Source: a virus (Duplodnaviria > Caudoviricetes). From it: DNA of 37,773 nucleotides. The position numbers were made by a program, and so were the translations under genes. Of this stretch, positions 1-36,150 are shown one piece after another. Under the pieces are notes generated by a model. The model ran no database searches, was not told where the DNA came from, and worked only from the letters and a program-made list of their open reading frames with translations. The stretch's first letter is position 1, and each line of letters opens with the position of its first letter. The stretch lies in the IMG/VR virus record IMGVR_UViG_3300035660_000038, positions 1 to 37,773 of that record; one strand, given 5' to 3'.

Positions 1-49
1 ATATATTTACTATAAAATATTTAGCTCTAAAAATAATACACTTTTTTTG

Positions 50-84
50 AGGGCAGTTTTAGACCTCCGAAAAACTGCTTCCCC
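50..84. other. Inverted repeat/hairpin in AT-rich non-coding DNA
   Basis: gggcagtttt-agacctccga-aaaactgcttccc; the core GCAGTTTT/AAAACTGC pairs perfectly. Confidence 0.5.
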
Positions 85-514
85 ATGTTATATTTATATA
101 TTCTTTTCTATCTTAAAATATTACAATGTTATTTTATCATCGTTTAACTGTGTTAAACATTATAATTTCCCGATATTTATTACAGCTATATGTACCAACG
201 GTTTCCGAATAAATTTGAAATATTTTGATTCTCTAGATAAAAGTAAAAAAAATACTATTTTTTATCTTCAGGAATAAATTATAATTAAATTATAAAGTTT
301 AAATAATATAATATATATATAGTATATATATACATATATATATAATAATAAAAGATAAAAGAATATAAACTCTGAGAGTATTGATAAACAATACTTCTTT
401 ATATATGTATATGAATAGAATATTTCAAACTTATTAATATAATTTAGAGCATTGTTTTTAGTATGGTATATTTTATAATAATAGAGATTTTATATTTTAG
501 TGTAAAACTTTCCT

Positions 515-557
515 AAAAAAGAAGAGGGGTTATTTTTGTTTTTAGAAAAATAACCCC
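515..557 (-). terminator. Rho-independent terminator closing the leftward small-ORF operon
   Basis: 12-bp perfect stem ggggttattttt (526-537) / aaaaataacccc (546-557), followed on the minus strand by a T-rich tail, just downstream of the last leftward ORF. Confidence 0.75.
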
Positions 558-581
558 TTACTCCTTTAAGATAATAATACA

Positions 582-731: not shown

Positions 732-941
732 TTACTTTAAGTCATATTCATAAATAACTTTTTCATTCTTGATCGCTAAATAATGGTTATTGATATAAGG
801 AAAATCGTAGCAATAAAATTTATTTAATATCTCTTGCAATAATAGGATTATATTCCAATCTTCTACCCGACGATATTTTTTATATAATCCTACATACCAT
901 TTATACTTATTCAATAACCATATTTCTATTTTCTTTTTCAT
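732..941 (-). CDS. Hypothetical phage protein
   Basis: ORF track; SD AAGGAGGTGA upstream. Confidence 0.7.
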   Translation of the reverse strand: MKKKIEIWLLNKYKWYVGLYKKYRRVEDWNIILLLQEILNKFYCYDFPYINNHYLAIKNEKVIYEYDLK

Positions 942-996
942 TATTAATCACCTCCTTTATTCCTTTATTCCTTATCAATATAACTTTAAGTTATAG

Positions 997-1020
997 ATAG
1001 CCTACCTAAAAGCAGGCTAT
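997..1020 (-). terminator. Intergenic stem-loop (possible terminator/processing site)
   Basis: atagcct-N10-aggctat inverted repeat immediately after the stop of 1029..1289. Confidence 0.45.
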
Positions 1021-1028
1021 TTCGGAAT

Positions 1029-1289
1029 CTATTTATTCAGGTTGGTTAGGATATATTTGCCAGTTTCGATTCTAGTTTTAACTTCAATGGTATCAGTATT
1101 ACCTAAAAATCTATTTAGGTATTTAGTGGTAGTTCGGCTATAATCCCAGGTATTTTTATCCAGGTATATTTTACCATTAGATTTTAGGGCAATAATAGAA
1201 TCATAGCTTTGAAAATAAACTCCTTTGTTTGTTTCGATAATAAACTGATCCTTAGCTCCTTCAAAATTAGAGACTTTGACGTGTAACAT
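1029..1289 (-). CDS. Conserved-type small phage early protein (FQSYDSIIA...WDYSRTT motif)
   Basis: ORF track; SD GGAGG; motif resembles a widespread small phage hypothetical family. Confidence 0.8.
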   Translation of the reverse strand: MLHVKVSNFEGAKDQFIIETNKGVYFQSYDSIIALKSNGKIYLDKNTWDYSRTTTKYLNRFLGNTDTIEVKTRIETGKYILTNLNK

Positions 1290-1490
1290 TTATAGACCCT
1301 CCTTTTTTAAATATTCATAATAAGATTTTAATATATTCTTTTGTTTCAACGTTAATTTTAGAAACCATTCATTTAATTTATGATGCTCTTCTTTTTCTAT
1401 ATAGTATTCAGGTGATAGTATCATATTATTCTTTTCAATTTCCTCTAATGAAACAGTAAAACATAATGGGTTTTTAGATATAATTTTCAT
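1290..1490 (-). CDS. Hypothetical phage protein
   Basis: ORF track; SD GAGGAGGT; abuts next gene. Confidence 0.7.
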   Translation of the reverse strand: MKIISKNPLCFTVSLEEIEKNNMILSPEYYIEKEEHHKLNEWFLKLTLKQKNILKSYYEYLKKEGL

Positions 1491-1504
1491 TTAATTAAAC
1501 CTCC

Positions 1505-1687
1505 TCAGATTTTCATAAAATAAGTAAATTCGTTAGTAAAAATATTCTGATGATCAAGTAACTTATAATTTAGATGTACTCTATTTTGTTTTAAGCCAGT
1601 AAACATTTCCAGGTCTTTAATAAGGTCTAAAAACTTTATAGTCTTACAATGAAATGGTGCATAATTATCTTTTTTAATTATTAACAT
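1505..1687 (-). CDS. Hypothetical phage protein (start revised to MLIIKK)
   Basis: Track ORF 1505..1717; ATG at 1687 follows AGGAAGGG and avoids overlap with 1701..1874. Confidence 0.55.
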   Translation of the reverse strand: MLIIKKDNYAPFHCKTIKFLDLIKDLEMFTGLKQNRVHLNYKLLDHQNIFTNEFTYFMKI

Positions 1688-1700
1688 TTTAACCCTTCCT

Positions 1701-1874
1701 TTATTTAATAGCCTCATACCAATAAATAGATTGAATGCCTGAATCAGGATAATGATAAACTCCTACTTTTACAGTCCAGTTATTTTTTCTTAATTCTTTG
1801 ACTGCAATATTTCTGTTTTTTGCGTTTCTAAAAGTATCGTTTTTATGCTTTTTCCCATTGGTGTAAATATTCAT
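1701..1874 (-). CDS. 57-aa hypothetical protein (MNIYTNGKKH...)
   Basis: Read manually; SD AGGAGG at 1885-1890; below track cutoff. Confidence 0.65.
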   Translation of the reverse strand: MNIYTNGKKHKNDTFRNAKNRNIAVKELRKNNWTVKVGVYHYPDSGIQSIYWYEAIK

Positions 1875-1957
1875 TTCGGTTTGACCTCCTTATATTAAGA
1901 TTGAATTGGTTATACAGAAGAGGGGAAGGCTAGATAATTTTCCCCCTTCCTTGCCCT

Positions 1958-2146
1958 CTACCTATTCTTTTCGACAATTTTATCTAGTAATGATTCAATT
2001 TTCCCTCTTAAATATATTAATGTTATTAAAGAGCCGAATTGTTCATCATCGTTTTTTAATTGCCCTTTTTTTCTTAAAATACCAGCGATATTATCACATA
2101 ACATATTTTTTATTTTATGAATAATAATATCTTTTTTCATATTCAA
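1958..2146 (-). CDS. Hypothetical phage protein
   Basis: ORF track; SD AAGGAGAGAGG upstream. Confidence 0.65.
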   Translation of the reverse strand: MNMKKDIIIHKIKNMLCDNIAGILRKKGQLKNDDEQFGSLITLIYLRGKIESLLDKIVEKNR

Positions 2147-2162: not shown

Positions 2163-2339
2163 TTATTTATTCTTTTCTTTGTAATTTACAAAATCTTGAT
2201 ATGTTTCTTTAGCCGGATGCGATCTTAAGTAAGATAACCATAATTCATAATTCTCTTTTTTCATTTTATACTCATTATGATTAGTTACTACATCCTTGAG
2301 ATATTCATTATACTTTATTTTCATTGCTTCTGATAACAT
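2163..2339 (-). CDS. 58-aa hypothetical protein (MLSEAMKIKY...)
   Basis: Read manually; SD AAAGGAG upstream. Confidence 0.65.
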   Translation of the reverse strand: MLSEAMKIKYNEYLKDVVTNHNEYKMKKENYELWLSYLRSHPAKETYQDFVNYKEKNK

Positions 2340-2449
2340 TTGATTAATCTCCTTTCTTATTCTTTACTTATTCTATTCCCCAAAAGATTATATTTTAGAC
2401 ATCATTATGAAATATATTTTATCTTTTGTTATAAATACTTATACGATAA

Positions 2450-2465
2450 TGTTCCACGTGGAACA
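2450..2465. promoter_or_regulatory. parS: parS centromere-like site (ParB/Spo0J binding)
   Basis: TGTTCCACGTGGAACA, a perfect palindrome (18 bp with flanks, 2449-2466) of the bacterial chromosomal parS family (consensus TGTTNCACGTGAAACA); intergenic. Confidence 0.85.
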
Positions 2466-2474
2466 TAATTTATA

Positions 2475-2681
2475 TTAATAAATCTCACCATTAATCATAA
2501 CTTTATGGCTATTTTTTAGATAACTTTGTAAATTTGATTCTTTTTCTTCTTTAAGAAGTGTTTTGTAACTATTTCTGGTTAGCCAACCATAAAACTGCCC
2601 ATTACAGAAAACTTTGTAACATGTACCTTTAGCCAGAGTGTTTTTTATTATTCTTTTAGAAGTTAAATCCATAATATACAT
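2475..2681 (-). CDS. Hypothetical protein, first gene of leftward operon
   Basis: ORF track; SD AAGGAGG. Confidence 0.7.
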   Translation of the reverse strand: MYIMDLTSKRIIKNTLAKGTCYKVFCNGQFYGWLTRNSYKTLLKEEKESNLQSYLKNSHKVMINGEIY

Positions 2682-3145: not shown

Positions 3146-3263
3146 TATGATTGAAAAAGAAGAGACCCCGCCAACCCCCCATGCCACCCCTATATTATAG
3201 TATATGTCCCTCTCCCAAACTGCTTTAATTTTTACATCATATAATATATATTACAATATGATA

Positions 3264-3292
3264 TTGACATATCTCCAAATATAATATATCAT
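3264..3292 (+). promoter_or_regulatory. sigma70-type promoter
   Basis: TTGACA-N17-TATCAT. Confidence 0.75.
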
Positions 3293-3762: not shown

Positions 3763-3791
3763 TTGACATATATTAATCTGTAGTATATAAT
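3763..3791 (+). promoter_or_regulatory. sigma70-type promoter, perfect consensus
   Basis: TTGACA-N17-TATAAT. Confidence 0.85.
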
Positions 3792-4143: not shown

Positions 4144-4860
4144 ATGAATAAAATAGGTTGGTGCGATTTAACCTTTAATCCTGTCTGGGGTTGCAGGAAT
4201 GATTGTTCATATTGTTATGCAAGAAAAATAGCAAGTTTTCGATATAATCAAATGGCTGATAAAGAATACAAATATATGTATTACAAAGATGAGATATGTC
4301 GAGGAGAATTTGCAAATAGATTAAGACATTTTGTTCCTACCTTTATAGAATCTAATTTTAATAAGAAATTCCCCAAAAAAACCCAACGGATATTTGTAGG
4401 ATCTATGAGTGAAATTTATTATTGGAGAAGGGAATGGGTGGAAGAAGTAATAGAAAAGATAAAACAATATCCTCAACATACTTTCCAATTCTTGACTAAA
4501 TATCCTCGGATATATTCAAAGTATGTACTTCCAAATAATTGCTGGTTGGGAATGACCATAACAAAGGAAGAAGATGTAGATAAAAATTGGGGATATTTTT
4601 ACAATGAAAATAATAGGTGTTTTTTCTCTGTCGAACCTTTTTTGGATAGGATCAATCCTGAATCTTTGGAATGTATAGATTGGGTGATAATCGGAGCCGA
4701 AACTGGCAATAGAAAAGGTAAGATTATTCCTAAAAGGGAATGGATTGAAGAAATAATCAATTTTTGTAGGAATAAAAATATCCCATTATTTTTAAAAGAC
4801 AGCATATATAAAGGTTATCCCGATTTGTCAATTATGAAGGAGTTTCCCAATGGCAGTTGA
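4144..4860 (+). CDS. DUF5131 / phage Gp37Gp68-family radical-SAM-like protein
   Basis: KIGWCD.TFNPVWGC, CxxxCxxCYA, IFVGSMSE, HTFQFLTK, SVEP, IDWVIIGAETG, IPLFLKD motifs. Confidence 0.9.
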   Translation: MNKIGWCDLTFNPVWGCRNDCSYCYARKIASFRYNQMADKEYKYMYYKDEICRGEFANRLRHFVPTFIESNFNKKFPKKTQRIFVGSMSEIYYWRREWVEEVIEKIKQYPQHTFQFLTKYPRIYSKYVLPNNCWLGMTITKEEDVDKNWGYFYNENNRCFFSVEPFLDRINPESLECIDWVIIGAETGNRKGKIIPKREWIEEIINFCRNKNIPLFLKDSIYKGYPDLSIMKEFPNGS

Positions 4861-4887: not shown

Positions 4888-4915
4888 TTGACAAATATAA
4901 TATAAGTATTATAAT
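4888..4915 (+). promoter_or_regulatory. sigma70-type promoter
   Basis: TTGACA-N16-TATAAT. Confidence 0.7.
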
Positions 4916-5267: not shown

Positions 5268-5660
5268 ATGCCAAAATGTAGCACTGGAATTGTATATAAT
5301 GATACTACTTCTGGAACTTCTTGGACTTATGAACAAATGCCAGTAACTATACCTTACGTTAGTCCATTAGCGCCTTATGGTGAACAATGTAAACAAGAAA
5401 GGAGTGATAATATGCGATACTTATATTATGTGATTTTAGTCAATCCAAAGAATGATGATTTCTTTACCATCAAGGTTGTTGCTAAATCTGAAACTTCTGC
5501 TCTTGCTCTTATGGAAGCATACAATAAGAGTCAATTTAAAACACCAATTGATGCAATAAAGTATGATGACTTAAAAACTAATTGTAAGGTTCTTATGGAA
5601 TGGAAGGAAGAAGATTCATTAAAAAAAGCTATCGAAACTATAAAAAAGGCAGTGGAATAA
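5268..5660 (+). CDS. Hypothetical protein; second in-frame start at 5412
   Basis: SD-like AAGGAGTG before both ATG 5268 and ATG 5412. Confidence 0.7.
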   Translation: MPKCSTGIVYNDTTSGTSWTYEQMPVTIPYVSPLAPYGEQCKQERSDNMRYLYYVILVNPKNDDFFTIKVVAKSETSALALMEAYNKSQFKTPIDAIKYDDLKTNCKVLMEWKEEDSLKKAIETIKKAVE

Positions 5661-5681
5661 TATACCATAGGGGGGTATGAT

Positions 5682-5936
5682 ATGTTAATAAATGAAGTAT
5701 TCGATAAAAAATTGAAGAAACCATTGGAAGTTAAAATAAAACATTATTATATTGTTACTAATGACAATCTTGATTTATATGGAAAAGGAGATACTGAAGT
5801 AGAGGCAATCAAAGATTTTAAACTTGCTTTAATGGATATATATGAAACTTTGATAATAGATAAACCATATATTAAAAATTTGAGATCCTGTAAGAAATTA
5901 TATAAAAAATGGGAAGTTTATTTCGATTTCAAATAA
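5682..5936 (+). CDS. HicB-like fold protein
   Basis: YIVT..DL..YGKGDT.VEAIKDF pattern typical of the HicB N-terminal partial RNase H fold. Confidence 0.55.
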   Translation: MLINEVFDKKLKKPLEVKIKHYYIVTNDNLDLYGKGDTEVEAIKDFKLALMDIYETLIIDKPYIKNLRSCKKLYKKWEVYFDFK

Positions 5937-5956
5937 GAAAGGAGTGTGATTATGAT

Positions 5957-6127
5957 ATGTATCTTACTGTAAAAGAATTAGCTGAAAGACTGAAGGTAAA
6001 ACCTGTTACTATCTATAAGTGGTGCAGGGAAGGTTATTTCGATATTGCCAAGATTAACTTATCTGGAACGATTAGGTTTGAAGAAAATAAGTTAGAAGAC
6101 TGTTTCGATAAGTTGAGAGCAAGATAA
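5957..6127 (+). CDS. Excisionase/MerR-like HTH (HTH_17) DNA-binding protein
   Basis: YLTVKELAERLKV.PVTIYKW..EG...KI..SGTIRF; start revised to ATG 5957. Confidence 0.85.
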   Translation: MYLTVKELAERLKVKPVTIYKWCREGYFDIAKINLSGTIRFEENKLEDCFDKLRAR

Positions 6128-6643: not shown

Positions 6644-6655
6644 AAGGAAAGGAAT

Positions 6656-6970
6656 ATGAAATTAGAAGATTTTTATTATAGAAAAGAAAAAAATGATACT
6701 TTTGTTGAAATTATTGCTCTTATACGTAAGAATAAAACAGGTGAGATAAGAGAATATAAAGATGAGTTATATTGGGGTAATTGGTATCGAAGTGAAGAAC
6801 CCTCTACTTTTATATGGGAAGATGGTAATTATTCTTGTGATTGCAATAGATATTTATTTTTTCAAAGAGTAAAAAATGAAAATGAAGATAATAAAAAATG
6901 CGGAGATGAATTATATTCAGTTAATTTAAAAAATCCTAAAAATAATGAGATATTTTATAAAGAATATTAA
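6656..6970 (+). CDS. Hypothetical protein with WEDGNYSCDCNR motif, copy 1
   Basis: ORF track; near-identical inverted copy at 35791..36105. Confidence 0.85.
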   Translation: MKLEDFYYRKEKNDTFVEIIALIRKNKTGEIREYKDELYWGNWYRSEEPSTFIWEDGNYSCDCNRYLFFQRVKNENEDNKKCGDELYSVNLKNPKNNEIFYKEY

Positions 6971-6975
6971 ATAAC

Positions 6976-15654: not shown

Positions 15655-15930
15655 ATGATTAGTTTATATAAAACTATAACAGCAGATACCCAAGTATCCA
15701 CTACCGAATGCTACCTTGATGGTGTTGAATTAGCCCATACTGCTAATACAACTCTGGCAGTTTACGATGAGTCGGTGGGTGCTGGTGCGGCTGGTAAACT
15801 CGTTAGTACCACTTCAGTTACTGCTTATCAAAGACAAAGTTGTATTATATTTCCTACACCTGGATTAAAGATGAGTGGTATTTACGCAGACTGGACTGCT
15901 GGTACAGGAACAGTTTACTATCATTATTAA
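15655..15930 (+). CDS. Small beta-sandwich virion protein, family copy
   Basis: LYKTITA.TQV.TTECYLDG...YDE...GIY..W..GTGT.YYHY. Confidence 0.85.
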   Translation: MISLYKTITADTQVSTTECYLDGVELAHTANTTLAVYDESVGAGAAGKLVSTTSVTAYQRQSCIIFPTPGLKMSGIYADWTAGTGTVYYHY

Positions 15931-15945
15931 GGAAGGTGAAGTCAA

Positions 15946-16215
15946 ATGTTATATAAAACCATTACGGCAAGTACGCAAGTGACTACTACTGAATGTTATT
16001 TAGACGGCATTGAGTTCACTCATACTGATAATGCAGAATTGAAGATTTATGATGAAGCAGTCGGTGCAGGTTCTGCCACTAAACTTGTCTGTACTGTTTA
16101 TGCTACTGGTTATCAAAGAGAAGCGAATATAATGTTCCCCAGACCTGGAATAAAATTAAGTGGAATATATGTGGTCTGGACGGTCGGTACGGGAACAATA
16201 TATTATCACTATTAG
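15946..16215 (+). CDS. Small beta-sandwich virion protein, family copy
   Basis: Clear paralog of 15655..15930. Confidence 0.85.
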   Translation: MLYKTITASTQVTTTECYLDGIEFTHTDNAELKIYDEAVGAGSATKLVCTVYATGYQREANIMFPRPGIKLSGIYVVWTVGTGTIYYHY

Positions 16216-16230
16216 AGGGAGGTAAAATAA

Positions 16231-16806
16231 ATGACTAACCAAATATTATACAAAAGTATAACCGCAGCAACTCAAGTGGCGACATCAGAATGTTATTTAG
16301 ATGGTGTAGTGTTAAGTCTGGAAAATGAATTTATGGTTTATGATGAAGCCGATAGTTCTAAAACTGCTGCAAAACTCGTTTGTCTTATGCACGCTTCCTC
16401 TTATTACCGTTTTGAAAGTATAATGTTTCCTCCACCTGGAGTAAAAATGAGTAGTGGAATTTATGCCTATTGGAATGAAAAGGGTGCAAACTTTATATAT
16501 TATCATTTCGGTAAAAGTGATAAAGCGGCAAGAGATATTCTATACAGTTCAATATTAAGTGCTACAGATAAGTTAGTAAGCAATGCACCTTGTTATTTAG
16601 TCGGTGCAGAAATCAGTAGTGGTACAATGGCAATTTATGATGAACCTGATGCAACTCATAGTGCAGGAAGTTTGGTTGCTACTTTAAAAATGGGTAGTTA
16701 TAAATCATATAATAGGATGATTTTTACTAAACCTATTAAATGTAACAATGGTATCTATGTGGATAACCAAAGTGCCATAGGAACGATTTACTATAGTGTA
16801 GAATAA
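16231..16806 (+). CDS. Tandem two-domain member of same family
   Basis: Motif set (LY.SI, CYL.G, YDE, GIY, IYY) occurs twice. Confidence 0.85.
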   Translation: MTNQILYKSITAATQVATSECYLDGVVLSLENEFMVYDEADSSKTAAKLVCLMHASSYYRFESIMFPPPGVKMSSGIYAYWNEKGANFIYYHFGKSDKAARDILYSSILSATDKLVSNAPCYLVGAEISSGTMAIYDEPDATHSAGSLVATLKMGSYKSYNRMIFTKPIKCNNGIYVDNQSAIGTIYYSVE

Positions 16807-17050: not shown

Positions 17051-17851
17051 ATAAAACCATATAAATTAGATAATGATGAAATTGTAAAATTATATAATAA
17101 TGGTAAATCTACGGAAAATATATCCAATATAATGAATGTTCCTAATGCTCATATAATTATAAGAGTTTTAAAGAAAAAAGAAATAAAAAGAAGGACAGCA
17201 GAAGAAGCAGCAGATTTACGTTGCAATATTAATATTGATATTGATAAAATGATTAATTTATATGAAAGTGGTAAACCGAGTACAGAGATAGCAAAAATAT
17301 TCAATACAACTTCCAGTACAATTTTAATTAAATTAAAAAAGAATAATATAAGAATAAAAAGTCCTAATGAATATCATACAAAAAGAAAACCATATACAGA
17401 AGAACAGAGAAAGAATTTAGTTAATAGACTTATGGGACATTCTGTTTCAAAGGAAACAAGACTTAAACTTAGTGAAGCAAGAATGGGAGAAAAAAATCCA
17501 ATGTATGGGAAAATTGTATCAGAGGAAACAAGAAGAAAATTAAGTAAAGTGCATAAAGGAGAAAAAAGTTATTTATGGAAAGGTGGAGTAACTTTATTTA
17601 GACATGGTTTAAGAACATGTTTTGAATATCGTCAATGGAGAAGTGATATTTTCACAAAAGATAATTTTACTTGTCAAGAATGTGGACAAATCGGTAAAAG
17701 ATTACACGCACATCATATAGAAGCTTTCTCTTCTATTATACAAAAATATGAGATTACAACTATACAAGAAGCATTAGAATGCGAAGAGTTATGGAATATC
17801 AATAATGGGATAACATTATGTGAAAAATGCCATAAAGAATTAAAGAGGTGA
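17051..17851 (+). CDS. Free-standing HNH homing endonuclease with HTH repeats and NUMOD3 motifs; probable ATA start at 17051
   Basis: HSVSKETRLKLS and VSEETRRKLS (NUMOD3); CQECG..LHAHH...NGITLCEKCH (HNH); frame open back to 17051. Confidence 0.85.
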   Translation: MKPYKLDNDEIVKLYNNGKSTENISNIMNVPNAHIIIRVLKKKEIKRRTAEEAADLRCNINIDIDKMINLYESGKPSTEIAKIFNTTSSTILIKLKKNNIRIKSPNEYHTKRKPYTEEQRKNLVNRLMGHSVSKETRLKLSEARMGEKNPMYGKIVSEETRRKLSKVHKGEKSYLWKGGVTLFRHGLRTCFEYRQWRSDIFTKDNFTCQECGQIGKRLHAHHIEAFSSIIQKYEITTIQEALECEELWNINNGITLCEKCHKELKR

Positions 17852-18820: not shown

Positions 18821-19576
18821 TTGACTCAATATAAAGATAAAGATTATCTATATGATAATTATACAAATAAAAAATTAACTACATATCAAATTGCTAAATT
18901 ATATAATGTAACTGGTGAAGCAATTCAGTATTGGATGAAAAAATTTAATATCCCTTGTCGTTCAAAAAGTGAAGTAGTTCATTTAGCCAAAGGTAATCAT
19001 TGTATTTTATCACCAGAGGCAATTGAGTGGTTAAGTGGAGAATTACTTGGTGATGGAAGTTTAGGTTCGCAATCTAAATATTCAGCATTATTTCAATATT
19101 GTTCTAAATATCTTGAATATATAGAATATGTAAGAGATACACTTAAATCTTTTGGTATAAAACAATCTGGTAGAATACATAAACAATATCATAGAGATTA
19201 TGATAGTTATAGTTATTTTTATCGTTCTAAAGCTTATGTAGAATTATTACCTATCTATAAACAATGGTATCCAGAAGGTAAGAAGATAGTACCCAAAGAT
19301 ATTAAATTAACTTCATTGACCTTAAGACAATGGCACATTGGGGATGGATGTTTAAGACATAGAGAACATAGAAGACCATTTATAATATTATCTACTTATG
19401 GATTTATTGTTTCTGATGTAGAACAGTTAGTAAATAAGTTAAAAAATATTGGATTTATAATTAAAAGACAACCAAGTACAAATGTAATTCGAGTTACTCC
19501 ATATTCTACTAAAGAATTTCTTAATTATATTGGTAAATGCCCTGTGAATTGTTATCAGTATAAATGGGCATATTAG
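18821..19576 (+). CDS. Free-standing LAGLIDADG homing endonuclease with N-terminal HTH
   Basis: LSGELLGDGSL and LRQWHIGDGCL motifs, WYPEGKKIVP; TTG start. Confidence 0.9.
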   Translation: MTQYKDKDYLYDNYTNKKLTTYQIAKLYNVTGEAIQYWMKKFNIPCRSKSEVVHLAKGNHCILSPEAIEWLSGELLGDGSLGSQSKYSALFQYCSKYLEYIEYVRDTLKSFGIKQSGRIHKQYHRDYDSYSYFYRSKAYVELLPIYKQWYPEGKKIVPKDIKLTSLTLRQWHIGDGCLRHREHRRPFIILSTYGFIVSDVEQLVNKLKNIGFIIKRQPSTNVIRVTPYSTKEFLNYIGKCPVNCYQYKWAY

Positions 19577-25292: not shown

Positions 25293-25757
25293 GTGCACAA
25301 CAACAAAGAATATATGAAGGAGTATTTTAAAAAATACCCAGAGAAAAAGAAAGCAGCTCGTAAAAAATATTATGAAAACCATAAAGATCTTTGCAAGGAA
25401 AAAGTAAAAATATGGCATGATAATAATGTAGATAGTATAAATAAATACCATAGAGAATATAATAAGAATAGATACAATAAATTTAGAATTGCTGTATTTA
25501 ATCTTCTTTCCAACAATAATCCTCATTGTGTTAGATGTAATTGTGATGATATTAGACTTTTGGAAATCAACCATAAAAATGGTGGTGGAAAAAAAGAAAT
25601 CAGAAATTCTATCAAATTTTATAATGATATTCTTTCAGAAATAAGAAAAACTGATGATATTGAATTACTTTGTAAGGTTTGTAATAGTTGGCATTATTTA
25701 GAATTAAAATATGGAGAGTTACCTTATAAGATTTCTTATGATAAAATATTAATATAA
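25293..25757 (+). CDS. HNH-like endonuclease
   Basis: Basic helical N-terminus; CVRC...LEINHKNGGG...LLCKVCN; GTG start. Confidence 0.8.
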   Translation: MHNNKEYMKEYFKKYPEKKKAARKKYYENHKDLCKEKVKIWHDNNVDSINKYHREYNKNRYNKFRIAVFNLLSNNNPHCVRCNCDDIRLLEINHKNGGGKKEIRNSIKFYNDILSEIRKTDDIELLCKVCNSWHYLELKYGELPYKISYDKILI

Positions 25758-34193: not shown

Positions 34194-34209
34194 AAGCAAG
34201 GTGCAGAAT

Positions 34210-35256
34210 ATGAGGTTTCTGTTTATATCCAGACGAGGGGCAAGTTTATCCTTGGCAAAGAGAATTGCCGAAGAAGGAAATGAAGTAAAGTTCTTTGTCA
34301 ATAATAAATATTATGACAAAGTGGGCAATGGTTTAATTGACAAAGTATCTCATAAAGCAATAGAAAATTATGATTTAGTTGTCTTTGACGAATATGGTAT
34401 GGGAGAATATTCTGATAAAGTAGCAGTCCATAGACCTGTCTTTGGAAGTTCAGGTTTTGCCGATGTCTTCAATAATAATAAAGATTACAGAAATAAGATA
34501 TTAAATAAAATAGGATTGGAAATAACCACCGATAAATTAGGTATTAAACTAAACATCGGTGGTTTATTCAACGGCTTCGATTTTGTAAGACCTCTACATT
34601 TTTATATCAAACGAACTAAATTTATGGAGAACGACCTTTCAATCGAAACTGACTGTATGGGTTGTGTCCTGTGGTTTACTTCTGCAAATAAGATAACCAG
34701 AGAAACTATTCTAAAGATGAGAAACATCTTGGTCAAATCTGGCTATAAGGGTGCAGTCAATTTTGAACTTGCTATTCATAATGACAAATTCTATATTCAG
34801 AATATCATTTTAGGATTTTGCTACGATTCCACTTATGCTATGCTGGAAGGAACGAGGCAACCATTAGGTGAGTTCATCAATAAAGTAGCTAGTGGCAGTT
34901 TGAAAAGAATGAAGGCTTCTCCTGACTGGTTGGTTTCAGTTCGAGTTACCATCCCACCTTATCCTTTTCCTGTCAACAAATCCTATATTTCCAAAGTAGA
35001 AGGAATCAATTCCGACAATGATAAGCATATCTGGCTTCGTGATATTATGCTAAATGAGAAAGGAGAATATTATTCCACTGGAGCTGACGGTTTCCTTTTA
35101 ACAATCACAGCCAGAGGACTTTCGATTTACCAAGCCTTCAAAAGAGCATACCGCACTATCGGTAATTTAAGAATAGAAAATCTGCAATACAGGCACGATA
35201 TAGGAGAGAAAATTGAAAAGGATATTAATTTATTAAAGGAATGGGGATGGATTTAA
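34210..35256 (+). CDS. Degenerate PurD/GARS-like ATP-grasp-fold protein
   Basis: GARS N-domain (FLFIS..LA.RI..EGNEV..DLVVFD..G), FNG..F..P, C-terminal RAY..I..L....LQYR.DIG; lid domain and catalytic acidic residues apparently missing. Confidence 0.8.
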   Translation: MRFLFISRRGASLSLAKRIAEEGNEVKFFVNNKYYDKVGNGLIDKVSHKAIENYDLVVFDEYGMGEYSDKVAVHRPVFGSSGFADVFNNNKDYRNKILNKIGLEITTDKLGIKLNIGGLFNGFDFVRPLHFYIKRTKFMENDLSIETDCMGCVLWFTSANKITRETILKMRNILVKSGYKGAVNFELAIHNDKFYIQNIILGFCYDSTYAMLEGTRQPLGEFINKVASGSLKRMKASPDWLVSVRVTIPPYPFPVNKSYISKVEGINSDNDKHIWLRDIMLNEKGEYYSTGADGFLLTITARGLSIYQAFKRAYRTIGNLRIENLQYRHDIGEKIEKDINLLKEWGWI

Positions 35257-35729: not shown

Positions 35730-35790
35730 TTTATCCTTTTCTTGTTTAATTGATTTCATATTTGTTCCTCCTATACGTAAAAATTAGTTT

Positions 35791-36105
35791 TTAATATTCT
35801 TTATAAAATATTTCTTCATTTTTAGGATTTTTTAAATTAACTGAATATAATTCATCTCCACATTCTTCATTATCTTCATTTTCATTTTTTACTCTTTGAA
35901 AGAATAAATACCTATTGCAATCACAAGAATAATTGCCATCTTCCCATATATAAGTAGAAGGTTCTTCATCTTGATACCAATTACCCCAATATAACTCATC
36001 TTTATATTCTCTTATCTCACCTGTTTTATTCTTACGTATAAGAGCAATAATCTTAACAAGAGTATCATTTTTTTCTTTTCTATAATAAAAATCTTCTAAT
36101 TTCAT
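35791..36105 (-). CDS. Hypothetical protein with WEDGNYSCDCNR motif, copy 2
   Basis: 96/104 aa identical to 6656..6970 by manual alignment. Confidence 0.85.
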   Translation of the reverse strand: MKLEDFYYRKEKNDTLVKIIALIRKNKTGEIREYKDELYWGNWYQDEEPSTYIWEDGNYSCDCNRYLFFQRVKNENEDNEECGDELYSVNLKNPKNEEIFYKEY

Positions 36106-36150
36106 TTTTTTACCTTCTTAAAAGGAATAGGGATGGATTTAACACCCTCT

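What the first reader, a model, noticed from the sequence alone, without database searches (positions are those of the whole stretch)
2449..2466. Phage carries a perfect host-type parS centromere: possible hijack of chromosomal ParABS
Seen: ATGTTCCACGTGGAACAT, an 18-bp perfect palindrome, intergenic right after the first leftward gene. An exact 16-mer is expected roughly 1e-5 times in 38 kb at uniform base composition. Known: TGTTCCACGTGGAACA is a canonical chromosomal parS variant (e.g. Pseudomonas aeruginosa); ParB loads there, spreads, can silence neighbouring promoters and recruits SMC; Bacillus phage phi29 uses parS/Spo0J for segregation into prespores. No parA, parB or integrase is visible in the window. 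Inference: this podovirus-like phage recruits host ParB to be segregated as an unintegrated carrier-state episome, to position its DNA, or to tie early gene expression to host state; it could also titrate ParB away from the chromosome.
Basis: partly seen in the sequence, partly recalled or inferred. Interest (0 to 1): 0.85.

Follow-up and report, generated by a model that had tools for sequence, protein, structure and literature searches.

The report
Host centromere site on Atribacterota phage
An uncultured sediment phage with no partition genes in its sequenced part carries an exact copy of the chromosome 'centromere' word (parS) used by its likely host, a probably non-sporulating Atribacterota bacterium, placed between two predicted host promoters, so it likely borrows the host's ParB protein, a trick known from Bacillus phage phi29.

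Summary
Observation confirmed: an 18-bp perfect palindrome at 2449-2466 with the exact parS 16-mer, intergenic, chance about 1e-5. No ParA, ParB or integrase is found, but the record is about 86% complete. The host is probably a low-GC Atribacterota: a related phage is binned there, and the window has two promoter motifs found, among 86 Atribacterota genomes, only in that subgroup. Atribacterota carry this site beside parAB, with parS-type ParB and SMC; Spo0A was found in 0 of 86. parS lies downstream of a SigH-like and 48 bp upstream of a SigB-like promoter. A second strain seems to keep it while lacking the adjacent gene. Against: 3 of 3 more distant relatives covering the region lack it. 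Such sites are common in viral contigs: about 2,600 versus 66 for a control word. This scan noted the same on other DNA (92 word-matched notes). Verdict: host ParB binding likely (0.8); carrier-state partition plausible, untested (0.45). A variant of the phi29 strategy in a probably non-sporulating host.

The parts
2449..2466 (.). parS: 16-bp core 2450-2465 plus the outer A/T pair typical of Atribacterota chromosomal sites
   Evidence: the exact core is in 35 of the 37 genomes whose matches were listed; outer base A in 44 of 46 host arms against 118 of 248 arms in viral-contig sites
2374..2400 (-). Predicted SigB/F-like host promoter (GTCTAAAA-N12-GGGAATA), 48 bp downstream of parS and 35 bp before the ATG at 2339
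   Evidence: 94 matches in 42 of 86 Atribacterota genomes against 3 for the reversed control; 0 of 30 host copies lie inside ORFs, and 22 of 24 point at the next gene; chance in the window 1.6e-4; resembles the SigB consensus in PMC9847131
2725..2752 (-). Predicted SigH-like host promoter (GCAGGA-N14-TGTCGTAT) heading the leftward small-gene operon
   Evidence: same motif and spacing in relatives L280 and L278, not in L302; 10 matches in 9 of 86 host genomes, 0 control; SigH over cut-off in 4 of 5 hosts tested
2475..2681 (-). 68-aa ORF of no known family between the SigH-like promoter and parS; absent from a second strain
   Evidence: joint 2466 to 2714 in run X2
2163..2339 (-). 58-aa ORF, first gene after the SigB-like promoter; no family or Atlas hit
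732..2146 (-). Further small leftward genes (57-86 aa) that vary between strains
525..558 (-). Terminator-like hairpin closing the leftward block, followed by AT-rich DNA with no leftward ORF of 40 aa or more (possible origin, untested)
3177..3190 (+). Family-conserved motif CCCCATGCCACCCC in the divergent control region, function unexplained
   Evidence: present in the window, L280, L278 and L302
3264..4915 (+). Three near-perfect sigma-70-type promoter matches (3264-3292, 3763-3791, 4888-4915) facing the rightward and virion genes
   Evidence: 11, 12 and 12 of 12 matches

Best explanation
The palindrome is an exact copy of the parS word that Atribacterota keep beside parA-parB, and it likely loads the host's ParB onto the phage genome, which would then be carried and positioned by the host's ParA and SMC while infection is stalled in a slow-growing, probably non-sporulating cell. 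Shown: the site, its host-type sequence, the host par locus, and no par genes in the 86% of the genome that is held. Inferred: the host's identity; CTP-dependent loading and sliding of ParB (established for other bacteria); a waiting or carrier phase. The site lies between a predicted SigH-like promoter upstream and a predicted SigB-like promoter 48 bp downstream, so bound ParB would probably also damp the leftward early operon and tie it to host state. It is an accessory gain of one lineage, not a core part of this phage family. Odds: host ParB binds, about 0.8; partition or positioning is the main selected benefit, about 0.45.
For: Exact parS, chance about 1e-5. Host link: the only relative found in a pattern scan of 185,579 species genomes is in a genome titled Atribacterota, which bins three contigs of it. 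The two promoter motifs occur only in G001 and G036-G086 among 86 Atribacterota genomes. Phages with pilins like these hosts' share genes with the window. The DUF5131 gene is about 70% identical in DNA to a phage-like contig in G069. Host machinery: dnaA...mnmE-parS-rsmG-parS'-parA-parB in G001; parS with at most 1 mismatch in 75 of 86 genomes; ParB HTH in 77 of 86; 21 of 21 ParBs examined have R173, G201 and the CTP-binding motif (residues from PMC7383237 passages); SMC over cut-off in 3 of 5, with split pieces in the other 2. One perfect parS with parAB stabilises an unstable plasmid, and this exact sequence binds P. aeruginosa ParB best (PMC4368675 and PMC7022226 passages). Selection across viruses: about 2,600 stretches against 66 for a same-composition palindrome; 33 of 82 sites lie outside long ORFs against 16% expected; 1 of 80 loci has a ParB hit and 0 of 80 have host oriC genes. 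A second strain in run X2 aligns up to the last base of the palindrome while lacking the adjacent gene.
Against: No binding or segregation test exists. 0 of 53 close-relative loci (256 kb) hold a true parS. Most are short, but L280, L278 and L302 cover the matching region and 4.4, 1.2 and 3.7 kb further left without it. 0 of 5 other putative Atribacterota phage records have parS. About 14% of the genome is missing and could encode a par or integrase gene. No repressor is seen that would silence the three strong rightward promoters in a carrier state. The host is inferred: no CRISPR spacer match was seen in 86 genomes, other relatives sit in bins named Methanocellales and Bathyarchaeota, and the promoter motifs were not tested outside Atribacterota genomes. 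The strain evidence rests on one contig with 30 letters on its shorter side at likeness 80, and the site was not verified base by base there.
Confidence: 0.45

Rival explanations
1. Operator or roadblock: host ParB binds, but the selected effect is on transcription. It blocks read-through from the SigH-like promoter and/or silences the SigB-like promoter, gating the early genes by host state; partition is incidental.
For: Position inside the early leader. In the second strain the site would lie about 26 bp behind the -10 box of the SigH-like promoter. Intergenic parS3 and parS4 repress adjacent genes in P. aeruginosa, and parS upstream of repA silences it under ParB excess (PMC7022226, PMC4368675 passages). 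The relatives lacking parS also lack the SigB-like promoter, so the two may form one control cassette.
Against: Strong silencing in those papers needed excess ParB, and most neighbouring genes were unchanged. In this strain a whole gene lies between the upstream promoter and parS. Other phages use the SigB-like promoter with no parS.
Confidence: 0.25
2. Decoy or lytic positioning: during replication the many phage copies soak up ParB and SMC from the 1-3 host sites, disturbing host segregation or placing phage DNA on the nucleoid; there is no carrier state.
For: Hosts have only 1-3 sites each. The phage looks lytic: no integrase or repressor found, strong sigma-70 promoters.
Against: A single site; no benefit of titration has been shown; relatives do without it.
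Confidence: 0.15
3. A phage-encoded protein, possibly in the missing 6 kb, binds the palindrome, and the likeness to host parS is secondary.
For: The genome is 86% complete; the window encodes an excisionase-like HTH protein at 5909-6127.
Against: That HTH is conserved in relatives that lack the palindrome. No par, integrase or repressor hit among 36 selected ORFs from the early regions of L280, L302 and L278. An 18 of 18 match to the host site would be a coincidence.
Confidence: 0.08
4. Neutral passenger, captured host oriC fragment, or terminator hairpin.
For: Absent from relatives; flagged as terminator-like on the + strand.
Against: Chance about 1e-5. No flank homology to 23 host parS sites (best z 2.7 over 46 comparisons) and no SigB-like motif near them. 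RNA fold z -0.76 and no U-tract on the leftward strand. The word is about 40-fold enriched in viral contigs.
Confidence: 0.07

Closest known systems
Host parS sites of Bacillus phages phi29 and Nf, read by Spo0J/ParB (PMC2731898, passages read; the primary paper it cites was not read)
   Same: A phage classed as lytic carries the host's chromosomal parS next to other host-regulator signals and is proposed to use host ParB to segregate its DNA.
   Different: phi29 has five sites plus Spo0A boxes and is trapped in the prespore. Here there is one site, in a tailed phage of about 44 kb with no sign of phi29 kinship, in a host phylum where Spo0A was found in 0 of 86 genomes; the companions are SigH-like and SigB-like promoters. 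Only 2 exact 0A boxes, both inside genes.
Chromosomal ParABS: parS2/parS3 of Pseudomonas aeruginosa (PMC4368675, PMC7022226, PMC4820964; passages) and the Atribacterota oriC locus
   Same: Identical 16-bp site, the highest-affinity variant in P. aeruginosa; one site is enough for partition and can repress neighbouring promoters.
   Different: It lies on a phage, with no parA or parB seen in cis and no oriC genes around it.
Plasmid-prophage parABS systems such as P1, N15 and some actinobacteriophages (recalled, not checked here)
   Same: A centromere on an unintegrated phage genome.
   Different: Those encode their own ParA and ParB and use their own parS sequences; none was found here.

Membership tests
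Chromosomal-type parS | 16-bp palindrome matching the consensus with an intact CACGTG core | tested here: met
   same sequence in the PMC4368675 table
Chromosomal-type parS | A cognate ParB with parS-reading residues (R173, G201) and CTP motif in the host | tested here: met
   21 of 21 Atribacterota ParBs examined; the host itself is inferred
Chromosomal-type parS | Near oriC and parAB on a chromosome | tested here: not met
   phage genes on both sides; no flank homology to host sites
Chromosomal-type parS | ParB binds, loads with CTP and spreads | not testable with these tools
   needs EMSA, BLI or ChIP
phi29-type borrowed parS | Phage encodes no ParA or ParB | tested here: inconclusive
   none in the held 86%; about 6 kb missing
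phi29-type borrowed parS | Site matches the host's own parS | tested here: met
   18 of 18 match to the usual Atribacterota site
phi29-type borrowed parS | Sporulating host with Spo0A, and 0A boxes at phage promoters | tested here: not met
   Spo0A_C in 0 of 86 genomes, B. subtilis control positive; 0A boxes at 1970 and 4629 lie inside ORFs
phi29-type borrowed parS | Several sites, kept across related phages | tested here: not met
   one site; absent from 3 of 3 relatives covering the region; seemingly kept in a close strain
phi29-type borrowed parS | ParB-dependent inheritance of phage DNA | not testable with these tools
   uncultured phage and host
Plasmid-prophage parABS | Own parA-parB operon beside the centromere | tested here: not met
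   only small ORFs of 57-94 aa within 1.6 kb of the site
SigB-dependent promoter | Consensus GTTTAA-N15(+/-2)-GGGTAT, or the Bacillales form ending GGGWAW | tested here: inconclusive
   window has GTCTAA-N14-GGGAAT, one change in the -35 box; the host sigma scores about 190 bits, under the 234 cut-off; transcription not tested
SigH-dependent promoter | AGGA, about 18 nt, GAAT, as in the C. difficile promoter table | tested here: inconclusive
   window has AGGA-N18-GTAT; SigH over cut-off in 4 of 5 hosts

The most novel reading that the evidence does not exclude
In energy-starved sediments this Atribacterota phage runs a repressor-free dormancy switch built only from host parts. A SigH-like promoter, the host centromere and a SigB-like promoter lie in series, so that ParB both carries the silent genome through rare host divisions and holds the early operon down until the host's stress or pilus sigma factor fires. 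This would extend phi29-style segregation piracy to non-sporulating subsurface bacteria and suggest a function for the thousands of orphan parS sites in viral contigs.
Probability: 0.15. Interest if true: 0.8.

Novelty: new variant of a known kind. Interest (0 to 1): 0.45.

Why it matters
Use of host parS by a phage turned up in my searches only for phi29-type phages and spores. If ParB acts here, the trick works without sporulation, in an abundant sediment phylum (14.6% on average in one deep-sea survey, PMC12630724 passage) for which my searches found no phage-focused paper. The 40-fold excess of parS in viral contigs suggests a widespread, untested use, and this short parS-plus-promoter cassette is small enough to test in E. 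coli. The promoter motifs also give a way to assign phages to this host group. The single site by itself is not rare, and it is dispensable within its own family.

Tried and rejected
Six further matches with 3 mismatches (7 in all against 1.1 expected) are not secondary sites: relatives lacking parS give a similar rate, 32 in 256 kb. One-mismatch hits in L290, L297 and L305 lie inside the terminase gene and break the core. Terminator or structured RNA: rejected. Captured host oriC fragment: rejected. Spo0A control and spore entrapment: rejected. tRNA genes: none in the window. CRISPR spacers: no full-length spacer-like match in 86 genomes; the search scored only 3 candidates per genome, so it is weak. 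I first set the SigB-like spacing at 11 nt; the window did not match that pattern and the correct spacing is 12. A viral scan with the family motif gave one unrelated contig. A scan with relative P0112 gave no new record covering the left arm. L280, L302, L278 and L286 could not be searched as whole records. The primase was not found in G001 with this query. No RNA holder was listed. Run X3 holds a small share and was not used. The Atlas gave no hit for the 58-aa ORF. PMC10286716 and bioRxiv 2025.11.03.685801 (passages) are not relevant. The base-level state of the site in the second strain remains open.

Full report
Observation. The 18-bp palindrome is at 2449-2466, 8 bp past the stop of the first leftward gene. 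It is the longest perfect palindrome in the window and the only parS match with fewer than 3 mismatches. The exact 16-mer is expected 2e-6 to 3e-5 times per window. Some 18-bp palindrome arises in 24 of 60 simulations, so the parS identity, not the symmetry, is the signal.

The phage. The record is one linear 37,773-bp contig, CheckV 86% complete, held by runs labelled sediment metagenome. Terminase, capsid, an SU10-type adaptor, tail fibres and a peptidase M15 endolysin run rightward. Small genes run leftward from 2681 and, at the far end, from a cut primase-like gene. Capsid relatives include Mx8 and Brucella Tb at under 30% identity. No ParB, ParA, tyrosine integrase or resolvase was found in six frames. 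Relatives reach 43-48 kb, so about 6 kb is unseen.

Host. A terminase alignment of 43 sequences found one relative in a pattern scan of 185,579 species genomes, in a genome titled uncultured Atribacterota, which bins three contigs of that phage. Binning alone is weak: other relatives sit in bins named Methanocellales and Bathyarchaeota. Independent support came from the DNA next to parS. Window 2353-2441 matched many Atribacterota genomes. The shared motif, GTCTAAAA-N12-GGGAATA, occurs 94 times in 42 of 86 genomes against 3 for the reversed control, and never in G002-G035. An 11-nt version occurs 39 times in 16 of 86 against 1. Of 30 host copies examined, 0 lie in ORFs and 22 of 24 with a neighbour point at it, mostly type IV pilin-like and lipoprotein-like genes. 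It resembles the SigB consensus (PMC9847131, passages), and these hosts have a SigB/F/G-like sigma, beside pilus genes in the two loci read, scoring under the family cut-off. A second motif, GCAGGA-N14-TGTCGTAT at 2752-2725, is kept in relatives L280 and L278 and occurs 10 times in 9 of 86 hosts, control 0. It fits the spacing of C. difficile SigH promoters with one change (PMC7438776, passages), and SigH is over cut-off in 4 of 5 hosts. This low-GC subgroup is probably JS1 (name recalled, from no call). No spacer match was seen and other phyla were not tested, so the host remains an inference (about 0.8).

Host machinery. G001 has dnaA, yidC, jag, mnmE, parS, rsmG, a near-parS, parA and parB in a row. 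parS with at most 1 mismatch is in 75 of 86 genomes; the reversed control rang in 18. The exact 16-mer is in 35 of the 37 genomes whose rows were printed; 160 rows were not listed. The base outside the core is A in 44 of 46 host arms, as in the phage, against 118 of 248 arms in viral sites. ParB is in 77 of 86 genomes, and 21 of 21 examined have R173, G201 and the CTP motif. SMC is present. Spo0A was found in 0 of 86.

Conservation. In run X2 a contig at depth 17 joins 2466 to 2714 with 15 other letters between. This is a strain without the 68-aa gene whose alignment reaches the last base of the palindrome. It is one contig with 30 letters on the short side, laid at likeness 80, and the site was not checked base by base. 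More distant relatives argue the other way. 0 of 53 loci with capsid or terminase above 50% identity have a true parS. Three of them (L280, L278, L302) cover the control region and the first leftward genes, and they have neither parS nor the SigB-like motif. 0 of 5 other putative Atribacterota phage records have parS. The cassette is therefore an accessory of one lineage.

How common. About 2,600 stretches of the viral collection hold the exact 16-mer (estimated from 3 of 64 parts, 121 seen) against 66 in a full scan for one control palindrome of the same composition. Of the 80 loci fetched with wide flanks, 1 had a ParB hit and 0 had host oriC genes, and 33 of 82 sites lay outside long ORFs against 16% expected. 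A BLAST of the site against named phages returned phi29-family records among 152. The scan's notes hold 92 findings that match these words, in at least 83 genomes, and the 8 shown say the same thing; others pair parS with host sigma promoters. These are unchecked and count as no evidence.

Mechanism. Shown: site, position, host par locus, no par genes in the held DNA. From papers (passages only): this sequence is the best-bound parS of P. aeruginosa, one site with parAB stabilises a plasmid, and intergenic sites repress neighbours (PMC4368675, PMC7022226, PMC4820964). phi29 uses five host parS sites with Spo0J for spore entrapment (PMC2731898). Inferred: host ParB loads on the injected phage DNA (0.8). 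I rank partition or positioning during a stalled infection first (0.45), a transcriptional roadblock between the two promoters second (0.25), decoy or lytic positioning third (0.15), a phage-encoded binder 0.08, and neutral or artefact 0.07. The first two can coexist. The weak point of the carrier reading is that no repressor explains how the strong rightward promoters would stay off.

Comparison and novelty. It works like phi29's borrowed parS but fails two of that system's marks: a sporulating host with Spo0A control, and several conserved sites. It is not a plasmid-prophage parABS. Searches for a general description of host parS on phages or for Atribacterota phage promoters found none; the library lacks most subscription journals, and no supplements were read. 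Verdict: real, a new variant of a known kind, one of many such sites, made more testable by a probable host and a compact promoter-parS-promoter layout. Interest 0.45.

Noticed in passing
L480:9482-9958(-), L484:10070-10513(+), L489:588-1001(+), L495:5320-5799(+): Four phage contigs carry a host-like type IV pilin gene (N-methyl motif, PHROG pilin) 41-45 bp behind the same SigB-like promoter; in three of them it lies opposite larger flanking genes. Possible receptor masking or superinfection exclusion in Atribacterota phages.
   Followed up: partly
G001 and G036-G086; for example L429:1498-2704, L448-L477: A probable SigB/F-like regulon in low-GC Atribacterota: a tandem sigma gene pair beside pilus genes, and a GTCTAAAA-N11/12-GGGAATA motif upstream of pilin-like and lipoprotein-like genes. 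Not found in my paper searches.
   Followed up: partly
L490:3443, L492:195, L499:947: Other phages use the same SigB-like motif at the head of a small-gene operon divergent from an HTH gene that looks like a small terminase (my reading), with no parS nearby.
   Followed up: partly
window 3177-3190; L280, L278 and L302 control regions: Motif CCCCATGCCACCCC is kept in four relatives inside otherwise unalignable non-coding DNA; possible packaging, end or origin signal.
   Followed up: partly
window 6653-6971 and 35790-36108: A 319-bp inverted duplication (94% alike) of a 104-aa gene, one copy in each arm.
   Followed up: no
window 34201-35256: 351-aa protein with a PurD/GARS C-terminal-like region at the end of the virion block, 56% identical in the G001-binned relative.
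   Followed up: no
window 15655-16806: Three tandem paralogous ORFs (91, 89 and 191 aa) after the capsid genes, with homologues in relatives.
   Followed up: no
window 17132-17851, 18821-19576, 25293-25757; P0103, P0119, P0124, P0125: Several homing-type endonuclease genes (HNH/NUMOD3, LAGLIDADG) among virion genes; some relatives have an intein-like LAGLIDADG insertion in the terminase.
   Followed up: no
L302:4930-5254, L286:2093-2167 and 5637-5710: Relatives carry tRNA genes (Thr, Ser, Ser, Trp; Ala, Trp) that the window lacks.
   Followed up: no
window 4144-4860; G069:C6: DUF5131 radical-SAM-like gene with a homologue about 70% identical in DNA on a phage-like contig in an Atribacterota genome.
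   Followed up: partly
window 1-520: AT-rich stretch with TA repeats after the leftward terminator; possible replication origin about 2 kb from parS.
   Followed up: no
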